Shown piece after piece: positions 12,884 to 18,524 of a stretch of 64,000 bases of DNA. Made by a program: the position numbers and the translations under genes. The stretch's first letter is position 1. Each line of letters starts with the position of its first letter. The DNA is from the human T2T-CHM13v2.0 reference genome, Homo sapiens: assembly GCA_009914755.4 (NCBI GenBank), contig CP086569.2:15904001-15968000 (forward strand). The letters run 5' to 3'. Below the pieces are notes generated by a model that was not told the origin of the DNA, did not search any database, and saw nothing but the letters and a program-made list of their open reading frames with translations.

Positions 12884-12897
12884 GCATGCCCTTTTCA
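12884..12897 (+). other. target-site duplication (left copy) of the inverted L1 at 12898-18288
   Basis: tgcatgcccttttc. The right copy tgtatgcccttttc lies at 18289-18302 and matches at 13 of 14 positions. Confidence 0.7.
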
Positions 12898-15800
12898 TTT
12901 TTTTTCATTGTAAGAATGTTTATCTTATTTTTTTTTATACTTCAAGTGATAGGGTACATGTGCACAATGTGTAGGTTTGTTACTTATGTATACATGTGAC
13001 ATGTTGGTGTGCTGCACCCATTAACTCGTCATTTACATTAGGTATATTCCCTAATGCAATTTCTCTCCCCTCCCCCACCCAATGACAGGCCCCAGTGTGT
13101 GATGTTCCCCTTCCTGTGTCCATGTGTTCTTATTGCTCAATTCCCACCTATGAGTGAGAACATGCGGTGTTTGGTTTTCTGTCTTTGTGATAGTTTGCTG
13201 AGAATGATGATTTCCAGCTTCATCCATGTCCCTACAAAGCATATAAACTCATCATTTTTTATGGCTGCATAGTATTCCATGGTGTATATATGCCACATTT
13301 TTTAATCCAGTCTATCACTGATGGACATTTGGGTTGGTTCCAAGTCTTTGTTATTGTGAATAGTACCACAATGAACATATGTGTGCATGTGTCTTTATAT
13401 CAGCGTGATTTATAAAACTTTGGGTATATCCCAGTAATGGGATGACTGGATCAAACAGTATTTCCAGTTCCAGATCTTTGAGGAATACCACACTGTCTTC
13501 CACAATGGTTGAGCTAGTTTAGAGTCCCACCAACAGTATAAAAGTGTGCCTATTTCTTCACATCCTCTCCAGAACCTGTTGTTTCCTGACTTTTTAATGA
13601 TCTCCATTCTAACTGGTGTGAGATGGTATCTCATTGTGGTTTTGATTTGCCTTTGTCTGATGGCCAGTGATGATGAGCATTTTTTTATGTGTCTGTTGGC
13701 TGCATAAATGTCTTCTTTTGATAAGTGTCTGTTCATATCCTTTGCCCACTTTTCCATGGGGTTGTTTGTTTTTTTTCTTGTAAATTTCTTAGAGTTCATT
13801 GTAGATTCTGGATATTAGCCCTTTGTCAGATAAGTAGATTGCAAAAATTTTCTCCCATTGTGTAGGTTGCCTGTTCACTCTGATGGTAGTTTGTTTTGCA
13901 GTGCAGAAGCTCTTTAGTTTAACTAGATCCCATTTGTCAGTTTTGGCTTTTGTTGCCATTGCATTTGGTGTTTTAGACATGAAGTCCTTGCCCATGCTTA
14001 TGTCTTGAATAGTATTGCCTAGGTTTTCTTCTAGGGTTTTTATGGTTTTAGGTCTAATATTTAAGTCTTTAATCCATCTTGAATTAATTTTTGTATAAGG
14101 TGCAAGGAAAGGATTTATTTTCAGCTTTCTACATATGGCTAGCCAGTTTTCCCAGCACCATATATTAAATAGGGAATCTATTCCCCATTTCATGTTTTTC
14201 TCAGGTTTGTCAAAGATCAGGTGGTTGTAGATGTGTGGTATTATTTCTGAGGATTCTGTTCTGTTCCATTGGTCTATACCTCTGTTTTGGTACCAGTACC
14301 AAGCTGTTTTGGTTACAGTAGACTTGTAGTGTAGTTTGAAGTCAGGTAACATGATGCCTCCAGCTTTGTTCTTTTGGCTTAAGATTCTCTTGGCAATGTG
14401 GGTTCTTTTTTTGTTTCCATATGAAGTAGTTTTTTCCAACTCTGTGAAGAAAGTCATGGTTAGCTTGATGGGGATGGCATTGAATCTATAAGTTACCTTG
14501 GGCAGTATGGCCATTTTGATGATATTGATCCTTCCTATCCATGAGCATGGAATGTTCTTCCATTTGTTTGTGTCTTCTTTTATATCATTGAGCAATGGTT
14601 TATAGTTGTCCTTGAAGAGGACCTTCACATCCCTTGTAAGTTGGATTCCTCGGTACTTTATTCTCTTTGAAGCAATTGTGAATGGGAGTTCACTCATGAT
14701 TTGGCTCTCTGTTTTTCTGTTATTGGTGTATAAGAATGCTTGTGATTTTTGTACACTGATTTTATATCCTGAGACTTTGCTGAAGTTGCTTATCAGGTTA
14801 AGGAGATTTTGGGCTGAGATGCTGGGGTTTTCCAAATATACAATCATGTCATCTGCAAACAGGGACAATTTGACTTCCTCTTTTCCTAATTGAATACCCT
14901 TGATTTCCTTCTCATGCCTGATTGCCCTGGCCAGAACTTCCAACACTATGTTGAATAGGAGTGGTGAGAGAGGGCATCCCTGCCTTGTGCCAGTTTTTAG
15001 AGAGAATGCTTCCAGGTTTTGCCCATTCAGTATGATATTGGTTGTGGGTTTGTCATAAATAGATCTTATTATTTTGAGATATGTCCCATCAATACCTAAT
15101 TTATTGAGAGTTTTTAGCATGAAGTGCTGTTGAAGTTTGTCAAAGGCCTTTTCTCCATCTATTGAGATAATCATGTGTTTTTTGTTTTTGGTTGTGTTTA
15201 GATGCTGGATTAGGTTTATTGATTTGTGTATGTAGAACCAGCCTTGCATCCCAGGGATGAAGCCCACTTGATCATGGTGGAAAGCTTTTTGATGTGCTGC
15301 TGGATTTGGTTTGCCAGTATTTTATTGAGGATTTTTGCATTGATATTCATCTGGGATATTGGTCTAAAATTCTCTTTTTGTGTGTGTTTCTGACAGGCTT
15401 TGTTATCAGGATGATACTGGCCTCATTAAATAAGTTAGAGAGGATTCCTTCTTTTTCTATTGATTGGAATAGTTTCAGAAGGAATGGTAGCAGGTCCTCC
15501 TTGTACCTCTGGCAGAATGCGGCTGTGAATCCATCTGGTCCTGGACTTTTTTTGTTGGTAGGCTACTCATTATTGTCTCAATGTCAGAGCCTGTTATTAG
15601 TCTATTTAGGGATTCAACTTCTTCCTGATTTAGTCTTGGGAGGTTGTATATGTCCAGGAATTTATCCATTTCTTGTTTATTTTCTAGTTTATTTGTGTAG
15701 AGGTGTTTATATTATTCTCTATTGGTAGTTTGTATTTTTGTGTGATCTGTGGTGATATCCGCTTTATCATTTTTTATTGTGTCTATTTGATTCTTCTCTC

Positions 15801-16001
15801 TTTTCTTCTTTATTAACCTTGCTAGCAGTCTGTCAATTTAAAAAAAAAAACCAGTTCCTTGATTCATTGATTTTTTGAAGGGTTTTTTGTGTCTTTATCT
15901 CTTCAGTTCTGCTCTGATCTTAGTTATGTCTTGCCTTCTGCTAGCTTTTGAATGTGTTTCCTTTTGCTTCTTGTAGTTCTTTTAATTGTGATGTTAGGGT
16001 G
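12898..16001 (-). mobile_element. L1 (L1PA-type) 3' segment: A-rich tail, 3' UTR and ORF2 from about aa 306 to the C-terminus, reverse orientation
   Basis: Reverse complement of the L1 3' end (tacttcaagtgatagggtacatgtgcacaatgtgtaggtttgttac...). Minus-strand ORFs at 13410-13799, 13789-15267 (492 aa containing the [12 protein letters not shown] reverse-transcriptase motif) and 15475-15669. Confidence 0.9.
13100..16001 (-). pseudogene. L1 ORF2 remnant (Z-domain/RT/C-terminal part), disrupted near the C-terminus
   Basis: Contains the 492-aa ORF 13789-15267 with RT motifs and ends with ...QIYKKKTNNP...[14 protein letters not shown]... before losing frame. It starts mid-ORF2 (TLTSQLKEL) at the inversion junction, so a full-length ORF2 is impossible. 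Confidence 0.85.
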
Positions 16002-16262
16002 GGGCACCCTCTGAGACAAAGCTTCCAGAGGAATGATCAGGCAGCAACATTTGCTGTTCAGCAATATTTGCTGTTCTGCAGCCTCTGCTGCTGATTCCCA
16101 GGCAAATAGGGTGTGGAGTGGACCTCTAGCAAACTCCAACAGACCTGCAGCTGAGGGTCCTGACTGTCAGAAGGAAAACTAACAAACAGAAAGGACAGCC
16201 ACACGAAAACCCCATCTGTACATCACCATCATCAAAGACCAAAGGTAGATAAAACCACAAAG

Positions 16263-17278: not shown

Positions 17279-17342
17279 AAGACCATCAATGCTAGGAAGA
17301 AACTGCGTCAACTAACGGGCAAAATAACCAGCTAACATCATA

Positions 17343-18288
17343 ATGACAGGATCAAATTCACACATAAAAATATTAATCTTAAATGTAAATGGGCTAAATG
17401 CTCCAATTAAAAGACACAGACTGGAAAAGTGGGTAAAGAGTCAAGACCCATCAGTGTGCTGTATTCAGGAGACCCATCTCATGTGCAGGGACACACATAG
17501 GCTCAAAATAAAAGGATGGAGGAAGATCTACCAAGCAAATGGAAAACAAAAAAAGGCAGGGGTTGCAATCCTAGTCTCTGATAAAACAGACATTAAACCA
17601 ACAAAGATCAAAGGAGACAAAGAAGACCATTACATAACGATAAAGGGGTCACTTCAATAAGAAGAGCTAACTATCCTAAATATGTATGCACCCAATACAG
17701 GAGTACCCAGGTTCATAAAGCAAGTTTGTAGAGACCTACAAAGAGACTTAGACTCCTACACAATAATAATGGGAGACTTTACACCCCACTGTCAACATTA
17801 GACAGAACAACTAGACAGAAAGTTAAAAAGGATATCCAGGAATTGAACTCAGCTCTGCACCAAATGGACCTAATAGACATCTACGGAACTCTCCACCCCA
17901 AATCAACAGAATATACATTCTTCTCAGCGCCATATCACACTTATTCCAAAATTGACCATATATTTGAAAGTAAAGCACTCCTCAGCAAATGTAAAAGGAC
18001 ATCAATTATAACAAACTCTCTCTCAGACCACAGTGCAATGAAACTAGAATGCAGGATTAAGAAACTCACTCAAAACTACTCAACTACTTGGAAACTGAAC
18101 AACCTGCTCCTGAATGACTACTGGGTACATAATGAAAAGAAGGCAGAAATAAAGATGTTCTTTGAAACCAATGAGAACAAAGACACAACATACCAGAATC
18201 TCTGGGACACTTCTAAAGCAGTGTGTAGAGGGAAATTTATAGCACTAAATGCCCACAAGAGAAAGCAGGAAAGATCTAAAATTGACAC
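17343..18288 (+). pseudogene. L1 ORF2 endonuclease-domain remnant (N-terminal ~305 aa, disrupted)
   Basis: ORFs 17343-17660 and 17843-18307 carry MTGSNSHIKILILNVNGLNAPIKRHRLEKWVKSQDPSVCCIQETHL and [39 protein letters not shown]. Confidence 0.85.
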
Positions 18289-18524
18289 TGTATGCCCTTT
18301 TCTATAAAGAGTACATATTGGGCTGGTTGCTGTGTGGAACCCTCAAAATGACCTCTTGGTCTTTCTTGTAAGGACAGAGTTGGACACTGTTCACTTGAGA
18401 GACTTCTTTACTAGGGTTGATGCAGCTGTTTCTCTAACTAGACTTGAGGCCTTCACCTGCCTTTTGTAGATAACAAATTAAAAATTAATACAAAACAACC
18501 ACTAAATGTGGGTGATGTGTGAGT

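What the first reader, a model, noticed from the sequence alone, without database searches (positions are those of the whole stretch)
12884..18302. L1 insertion with 5' inversion (twin-priming signature), bounded by a 14-bp target-site duplication
The minus-strand 3' segment (12898-16001) begins, in L1 coordinates, at ORF2 about aa 306 (TLTSQLKEL...). The adjoining plus-strand segment (16002-18288) runs from the distal 5' UTR through ORF1 to ORF2 about aa 305 (...[11 protein letters not shown]). The far end of the inverted piece therefore abuts the L1 coordinate where the 3' piece starts, which is the geometry expected from twin priming. The flanks tgcatgcccttttc (12884-12897) and tgtatgcccttttc (18289-18302) match at 13 of 14 positions, so this is a single ~5.4 kb insertion event.
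Basis: partly seen in the sequence, partly recalled or inferred. Interest (0 to 1): 0.55.

Follow-up and report, generated by a model that had tools for sequence, protein, structure and literature searches.

The report
Old L1 insertion with inverted 5' half
This is one dead, roughly 5.4-kb primate L1 (L1PA5) retrotransposon whose front half was inserted backwards, the well-known "twin priming" outcome seen in about one in five L1 insertions, so it is real but ordinary.

Summary
Window 12897-16001 (minus strand) is the 3' part of an L1: ORF2 codon 316 to the stop, the 3'UTR and an interrupted A-rich tail. Window 16002-18288 (plus strand) is the adjoining 5' part: 261 nt of 5'UTR, ORF1, and ORF2 codons 1-316.

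On the PDB ORF2p numbering the breakpoint is aa 315/316, not 305/306. The two pieces overlap by only 1-3 nt (CAC). Once rejoined, they align colinearly across the breakpoint to two independent full-length L1s.

Both pieces carry L1PA5-type diagnostic residues. They are equally diverged from each reference: 89.3% vs 89.9% against one, and 91.4% vs 91.4% against the other.

The flanking direct repeat is real. It extends to 16 nt at 15/16 identity (12881-12896 and 18287-18302). The extra AC is also L1 sequence, so there is 2 nt of microhomology at the internal priming site.

The geometry is exactly that of twin priming.

The empty-site test could not be done. The one database hit was a chance 25-nt match in a microbial contig.

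Verdict: a single L1PA5 insertion with a 5' inversion. This is a known phenomenon of low interest.

The parts
12881..12896 (.). Left copy of the target-site duplication. The core 14 nt, TGCATGCCCTTTTC, is at 12883-12896. The 16-nt repeat ACTGCATGCCCTTTTC includes 2 nt of possible microhomology.
   Evidence: Exact pattern positions. 16-nt direct repeat at 94% identity, family D14. Extension check.
12897..12936 (-). Interrupted A-rich tail of the L1. In sense orientation it reads A9-TAAGATAAACATTCTTACAATG-A8-T. It marks the first-strand priming end.
   Evidence: Read directly from the sequence. Aligned with the tails of two other L1PA copies in the window.
12937..16001 (-). Non-inverted, poly(A)-primed L1PA5 piece. 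ORF2 codons 316-1275 lie at 16000->13140, the stop at 13137-13139, and the 3'UTR at 13136->12937. The reading frame is decayed: 6 in-frame stops and about 5 frameshifts.
   Evidence: tblastn against ORF2p. blastn against the in-window full-length L1, 53339->50252. Subfamily diagnostics best for PA5, 45/67.
16001..16002 (.). Internal inversion junction. It joins ORF2 codon 315/316 (antisense) to a 5'UTR position 261 nt upstream of the ORF1 ATG (sense). There is no microhomology and no filler.
   Evidence: Sequence read. Alignment of the 5'UTR start to independent L1PA 5'UTR copies L004 and L005 shows that homology begins at GGGCAC, position 16002.
16002..18288 (+). Inverted, internally primed L1PA5 piece. 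Distal 5'UTR at 16002-16262, ORF1 at 16263-17279 (several stops and 2 frameshifts), inter-ORF spacer at 17280-17342, and ORF2 codons 1 to 315/316 at 17343-18288.
   Evidence: tblastn. PDB match ending at ORF2p aa 315. ORF1 translation, whose coiled coil matches L1Pa5 cluster cL3.5. ORF2 diagnostics PA4=PA5, 26/33.
18287..18302 (.). Right copy of the target-site duplication. The core 14 nt, TGTATGCCCTTTTC, is at 18289-18302. The AC at 18287-18288 is shared with L1 sequence (GACAC).

Best explanation
This is one retrotransposition event of an L1PA5 element, resolved by twin priming.

Inferred sequence of events:
1. L1 endonuclease nicked the window's plus strand after ...CCCTTTTC.
2. That 3'-OH primed reverse transcription from the A-rich tail of the L1 RNA. 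This made cDNA 1, now 12897->16001 on the plus strand, which is antisense L1 from the tail up to ORF2 codon 316.
3. The second-strand nick fell 14-16 bp away. Its 3' end (...GGGCATRCAGT on the minus strand) annealed inside the same RNA at ORF2 codon 315/316, using at most 2 nt of complementarity.
4. From there it primed cDNA 2, now 18288->16002 on the minus strand, running back through ORF1 to 261 nt upstream of the ORF1 ATG.
5. The two cDNA 3' ends were joined without microhomology at 16001|16002.
6. Gap fill-in produced the 14-16-bp target-site duplication.

The product lacks the proximal part of the 5'UTR, is split in ORF2, and has since accumulated stops and frameshifts, so it is inert.

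What is shown: the anatomy, the L1 coordinates, the subfamily, the equal divergence of the pieces, and the TSD. What is inferred: the order of the biochemical steps, which is taken from the published twin-priming model.
For: - The two pieces lie on opposite strands and together cover the L1 from the distal 5'UTR to the tail.
- On the in-window full-length L1, the plus piece ends at 53337 and the minus piece starts at 53339, a 3-nt overlap.
- The rejoined element reads AAAATTGACAC|CCTAACATC seamlessly against two independent full-length L1s.
- Mismatch identity of the plus vs minus piece is 89.3% vs 89.9% against the window L1 and 91.44% vs 91.37% against L004.
- Against the published L1PA1-7 ORF2p consensus peptides (PMC7449397 suppl.), both pieces fit PA5 best or joint best. 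The ORF1 coiled coil matches L1Pa5 cluster cL3.5.
- A 16-nt direct repeat at 15/16 identity sits exactly at the ends of the composite.
- The plus piece has no poly(A) or TSD of its own, and there is no TSD copy at 16002.
- The geometry matches published descriptions of twin-priming products (PMC2837659; PMC12016303). In the latter, 18-22% of L1 insertions are 5'-inverted and overlaps occur in 42% of germline cases.
Against: - The first-strand nick site reads TTTC/T, which is T-rich but is not one of the canonical motifs TTTT/A, TTTT/G or TTTC/A (for the motif list).
- The tail is not a clean poly(A). A 22-nt non-homopolymer stretch separates two A-runs.
- Microhomology at the internal priming site is only 2 nt, and there is none at the internal junction.
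- No orthologous empty site could be examined.
- Sequence alone cannot separate twin priming from a later inversion with the same breakpoints.
Confidence: 0.9

Rival explanations
1. A conventional 5'-truncated L1PA5 inserted on the minus strand. A later, unrelated chromosomal inversion then flipped exactly its 5' 2.3 kb.
For: The final arrangement would look nearly the same. Sequence from a single genome cannot order the events. No empty or intermediate allele was available.
Against: One inversion breakpoint would have to fall exactly at the L1/TSD boundary (18288|18289), leaving the TSD intact. A simple inversion does not explain the 1-3-nt duplication of L1 sequence (CAC) at both piece ends. 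No inverted repeats that could mediate such an inversion flank the piece (and the sequence reads).
Confidence: 0.05
2. Two independent L1 insertions happen to lie head-to-head in opposite orientations. Alternatively, one is nested next to the other, with a deletion removing the rest.
For: L1 fragments are dense in this window, so adjacency alone is not remarkable.
Against: The pieces meet at the same L1 nucleotide to within 1-3 nt. They are the same subfamily and equally diverged. The plus piece is 3'-truncated with no poly(A), which TPRT alone does not produce. The only TSD-like repeat brackets the composite and neither piece alone. No continuation of a plus-strand ORF2 (aa 317 onward) lies downstream.
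Confidence: 0.03
3. The inversion is an assembly artefact created while assembling repetitive L1 sequence.
For: Only that L1 repeats are a known source of misassembly. Nothing in the data points to it.
Against: Both outer junctions join unique flanks carrying a matching TSD. The internal junction joins two L1 positions about 2.3 kb apart in exactly the twin-priming geometry. A second, independent 5'-inverted L1 in the same window (43984-46682) shows that this architecture is common here.
Confidence: 0.01

Closest known systems
Twin-priming (5'-inverted) L1 insertions, Ostertag & Kazazian 2001 model, as described in PMC2837659 and PMC12016303
   Same: TSDs bound two oppositely oriented fragments of one L1. 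The non-inverted fragment carries the A-tail. The far end of the inverted fragment maps next to the start of the non-inverted fragment, here with a 1-3-nt overlap. The target site is T-rich.
   Different: Nothing essential differs. The inverted piece is long (2.3 kb, reaching the 5'UTR), so the whole insert is 5.4 kb. The overlap is at the short end of the reported range (median 12 bp). The nick site is TTTC/T rather than TTTT/A. The internal junction has no microhomology.
L1PA5 subfamily of primate LINE-1 (peak activity about 25 MYA according to PMC7449397)
   Same: ORF2p diagnostic residues, for example I807, I908, H914, T1156, K1162 and S1215 together with H331, Q584, S763 and Q863. The ORF1 coiled coil is of cluster cL3.5. 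The ORF1 C-terminal half carries RPALQELL.
   Different: A few PA4-like states are present (ORF1 EIKYF; ORF2 N1055, N1237). The source was therefore probably a late L1PA5 or PA5/PA4 intermediate, or these are private mutations.
Second 5'-inverted L1 in the same window (43984-46682)
   Same: Same architecture: a minus-strand 3' piece and a plus-strand inverted piece whose far end maps next to the start of the 3' piece.
   Different: It shows a gap of about 19 nt rather than an overlap, 3 nt of filler at the junction, a much shorter inverted piece (0.6 kb), PA4-like diagnostics, and no clear TSD in a quick search.

Membership tests
Twin-priming 5'-inverted L1 insertion | Two adjacent fragments of the same L1 in opposite orientation | tested here: met
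   Minus piece 12897-16001 and plus piece 16002-18288. Same subfamily. Equal divergence from two references.
Twin-priming 5'-inverted L1 insertion | The end of the inverted fragment next to the TSD maps next to the 5' end of the non-inverted fragment in L1 coordinates, with a small gap or overlap | tested here: met
   The inverted piece ends at ORF2 codon 316 (2nd base) and the non-inverted piece starts at codon 315 (3rd base). This is a 1-3-nt overlap.
Twin-priming 5'-inverted L1 insertion | The non-inverted fragment ends in a poly(A) tail abutting one TSD copy | tested here: met
   A 40-nt A-rich tail at 12897-12936 lies directly next to the TSD copy ending at 12896. It is interrupted by 22 nt of mixed sequence.
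Twin-priming 5'-inverted L1 insertion | Target-site duplication flanking the whole composite | tested here: met
   13/14 (15/16 over 16 nt) at 12881-12896 and 18287-18302. An equivalent match was seen in 33 of 20000 random window position pairs.
Twin-priming 5'-inverted L1 insertion | L1 endonuclease-type first-strand cleavage motif (TTTT/A and close variants) | tested here: inconclusive
   The reconstructed site is 5'-CCCTTTTC/TATAAAG-3', i.e. TTTC/T. It is T-rich but not one of the three motifs listed in PMC12016303.
Twin-priming 5'-inverted L1 insertion | Complementarity between the second-strand 3' end and the internal priming site on the L1 RNA | tested here: inconclusive
   Only 2 nt (AC at 18287-18288) are shared by target and L1. 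This is compatible with the model but is not significant on its own.
Twin-priming 5'-inverted L1 insertion | Orthologous empty site with a single copy of the TSD in a species that diverged before the insertion | not testable with these tools
   No primate genomes are available. The empty-site pattern scan of metagenome contigs returned only L001, an unrelated AT-rich microbial contig matching over about 25 nt.
L1PA5 subfamily | Family-diagnostic ORF2p residues relative to the L1PA1-7 consensus peptides | tested here: met
   Plus piece: PA4 26/33, PA5 26/33, PA6 21, PA3 23. Minus piece: PA5 45/67, PA4 42, PA6 37, PA3 37.
L1PA5 subfamily | ORF1p coiled coil and C-terminal half of L1Pa5 type | tested here: met
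   The coiled coil (AKNLEKR..TRITS.EKS..RDEC..VSVIEDQ MNEMK..VKRN) matches cluster 3.5. The C-terminal half has the PA5-type Q in RPALQELL but a PA4-type Y in EIKYF.

The most novel reading that the evidence does not exclude
The most novel reading not excluded is that the near-perfect continuity of the two pieces (1-3-nt overlap, blunt internal junction, only 2 nt of priming complementarity) reflects something other than classical twin priming. Possibilities are a post-integration inversion, or a single RT complex switching strands at the second nick. Even then it would be one more example in a debate that large long-read datasets already address.
Probability: 0.05. Interest if true: 0.2.

Novelty: already known. 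Interest (0 to 1): 0.08.

Why it matters
It matters little beyond correct annotation. Two adjacent, oppositely oriented L1PA5 fragments should be counted as one insertion event of about 5.4 kb, not two. That affects counts and length distributions of L1 insertions and the dating of the locus. The element is inert, and nothing suggests a function. The architecture occurs in roughly 18-22% of L1 insertions (PMC12016303).

Tried and rejected
1. Empty-site search. The pattern TTTACTGYATGCCCTTTTCTATAAA was run against metagenome contigs. The single hit, L001, is an unrelated AT-rich microbial contig. Similarity to the window is confined to the pattern itself, so it is a chance match.

2. The look-up of encoding contigs. 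I queried two window ORFs, the 72-aa ORF spanning flank/TSD/tail and the 492-aa ORF2 fragment, hoping to reach the same locus in other assemblies. Neither is on record.

3. Rfam scan of the window: no matches.

4. My first impression from the 5'UTR sequence was an older family (L1PA7/8). The ORF2 and ORF1 diagnostics rejected this.

5. The lower amino-acid identity of the minus piece (about 77% vs 89%) looked like a sign of different ages. DNA-level comparison with two references shows equal divergence. I attribute the protein-level difference to frameshifted stretches in the tblastn tiling.

6. The 6-nt palindrome AGGGTG/CACCCT around the internal junction suggested snap-back or templated synthesis. 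Independent L1 copies (L005) carry GGGCACCCCTCTGAG natively, so it is most simply coincidence.

7. The first 98 nt of the plus piece did not align to the in-window full-length L1. The cause is a 92-nt deletion in that reference, not foreign sequence in the target.

8. The Ostertag & Kazazian 2001 paper is not held in the library. The model is cited through PMC2837659 and PMC12016303.
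Full report
**What is there.** The window is primate-type DNA rich in L1. tblastn with human ORF1p and ORF2p maps the target region as follows.
- Minus strand: ORF2p aa 316-1275 at 16000->13140.
- Plus strand: ORF1p aa 1-338 at 16263-17276, and ORF2p aa 1-317 at 17343-18292.

I validated the ORF2p query against PDB chain 8uw3_A over residues 1-1275. A direct PDB search with the last plus-strand ORF ends at ORF2p aa 315...[10 protein letters not shown]. This is a numbering slip, not a structural error. 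Both pieces are decayed: there are stops and frameshifts in ORF1, and 1 and 6 in-frame stops in the two ORF2 parts.

**Breakpoint at nucleotide level.** blastn against a full-length L1 elsewhere in the window (minus strand, about 50240-56306) places the end of the plus piece at 53337 and the start of the minus piece at 53339. The pieces therefore share 3 nt (CAC). When the pieces are rejoined with that overlap removed, the element reads AAAATTGACAC|CCTAACATC. It aligns colinearly across the breakpoint to that L1. It also aligns to an independent near-full-length L1, L004, as a single HSP covering positions 8-5224 at 90.9% identity. L004 is primate DNA contaminating a bacterial assembly.

The internal junction lies at 16001|16002. 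Independent L1PA 5'UTR copies (L004, L005) show that 5'UTR homology starts exactly at GGGCAC (16002), 261 nt upstream of the ORF1 ATG. There is no shared base with the antisense ORF2 end.

The first 98 nt of the plus piece failed to align to the in-window L1. That reference has a 92-nt deletion there.

**Same element?** I used the published L1PA1-7 ORF2p consensus peptides (PMC7449397 supplement) and scored matches at family-variable positions.

| Piece | PA3 | PA4 | PA5 | PA6 | Positions scored |
|---|---|---|---|---|---|
| Plus | 23 | 26 | 26 | 21 | 33 |
| Minus | 37 | 42 | 45 | 37 | 67 |

- The ORF1 coiled coil of the plus piece matches cluster cL3.5, the "555" L1Pa5 ORF1p.
- The ORF1 C-terminal half has the PA5-type RPALQELL, with one PA4-type residue in EIKYF.
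- Mismatch identity of the plus vs minus piece is 89.3% vs 89.9% against the window L1, and 91.44% vs 91.37% against L004. Values are uniform across ORF2 windows.

The pieces are therefore the same family and the same age. The lower amino-acid identity of the minus piece is most likely an artefact of frameshifted stretches.

**Flanks.** TGTATGCCCTTTTC is at 18289-18302. The repeat extends to 16 nt at 15/16 identity, 12881-12896 and 18287-18302. The extra AC on the right is also the last two L1 bases (GACAC). The TSD is therefore 14-16 bp, the L1 overlap is 1-3 nt, and there are 2 nt of possible priming microhomology.

In the same search space, a match of 13/14 or better arose in 33 of 20000 random window position pairs, most of them exact matches that I take to be repeat-derived. 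An analytic estimate for 15/16 is about 1e-5 (my own calculation, not a tool result).

Neither piece has a TSD or poly(A) of its own. The sequence right of 16001 and the sequence left of 18289 do not repeat the flank.

The tail at 12897-12936 reads, in sense orientation, A9-TAAGATAAACATTCTTACAATG-A8-T. It resembles the tails of the two other L1PA copies in the window. It may therefore be lineage-encoded rather than a locus-specific transduction, but this is unresolved.

**Mechanism.** Read on the L1-sense (minus) strand, the order is:
1. TSD.
2. Antisense L1 from ORF2 codon 316 back to the distal 5'UTR.
3. Sense L1 from codon 315/316 to the tail.
4. TSD.

This is the product described for twin priming, with first-strand priming on the poly(A) and second-strand priming internally on the same RNA (PMC2837659; PMC12016303). 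In the latter study, 18-22% of L1 insertions are 5'-inverted. Overlaps between the two cDNAs occur in 42% of germline cases, with a median of 12 bp.

The reconstructed first-strand nick, CCCTTTTC/TATAAAG, is T-rich but not canonical. The internal junction is blunt, which is compatible with end joining. The biochemical order of steps is inferred from the model and is not shown here.

**Rivals.**
- A later inversion of a normal insertion needs a breakpoint exactly at the L1/TSD boundary. It also does not explain the duplicated CAC.
- Two independent insertions cannot explain coordinates that coincide to within 3 nt, the equal age, the 3'-truncated plus piece without poly(A), or a TSD that brackets only the composite.
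- Nothing supports an assembly artefact.

**Empty site.** The scan for the reconstructed empty site returned one contig, L001. It is unrelated microbial DNA that matches over only about 25 nt, so it is uninformative. Look-ups of two window ORFs in public assemblies found nothing. The orthologous-locus test therefore remains to be done outside this toolset.

**Verdict.** The finding is correct in substance. It is a single, roughly 5.4-kb L1PA5 insertion (12897-18288) with a 2.3-kb 5' inversion, flanked by a 14-16-bp TSD. It is a textbook instance of a known and frequent outcome of L1 retrotransposition, and it is not novel.

Noticed in passing
window 43984-46682: A second L1 with a 5' inversion. 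The minus piece 46080->43984 covers ORF2 aa 654-1275 plus the 3'UTR and tail. The plus piece 46084-46682 covers aa 448-637. In L1 coordinates there is a gap of about 19 nt between the pieces, with 3 nt of filler at the junction. ORF2 diagnostics are best for PA4. A quick search found no convincing TSD.
   Followed up: partly
window ~50240-56306 (minus strand): A full-length L1 starting GGCAGCCAAGATGGCCGAATAGG. ORF2 diagnostics score highest for PA5 (81/100), but the ORF1 coiled coil is of the younger PA4/PA3 type. It carries a 92-nt deletion in the distal 5'UTR relative to other L1PA copies. No clear TSD was found.
   Followed up: partly
L002 (CABPVN010000090.1), L004 (CZJT01000051.1), L005 (CBDHDV010000254.1): Contigs filed under Campylobacter concisus, Arthrobacter antarcticus (contig coverage 0.54) and a Rubritalea MAG consist of, or contain, primate L1PA sequence. 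L004 is a near-full-length L1, about 91% identical to the target. This is evidently host-DNA contamination of bacterial assemblies.
   Followed up: partly
L001 2014-2038 (OIYV01015729.1): A 25-nt exact match to the reconstructed empty site lies in an AT-rich microbial metagenome contig, with no other similarity to the window. It is a reminder that T-rich 25-mers can match by chance in very large collections.
   Followed up: yes
window 12897-12936; compare 50215-50260 and 43950-43995: The A-rich tails of all three L1PA copies in the window share similar interruptions after the first A-run (...AAGA(T/A)AA(A/T)AC... CAAT(G/A)A...). The segment may therefore be encoded by the source lineage rather than being random tail decay or a private 3' transduction.
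   Followed up: no
window 41807-42310, 47022-47451, 47996-48262, 49970-50250, 57562-57645: Further short, more diverged L1 ORF2-derived fragments (31-57% amino-acid identity to human ORF2p, apart from one 18-aa match at 89%). They show that the window is a dense L1 landscape.
   Followed up: no
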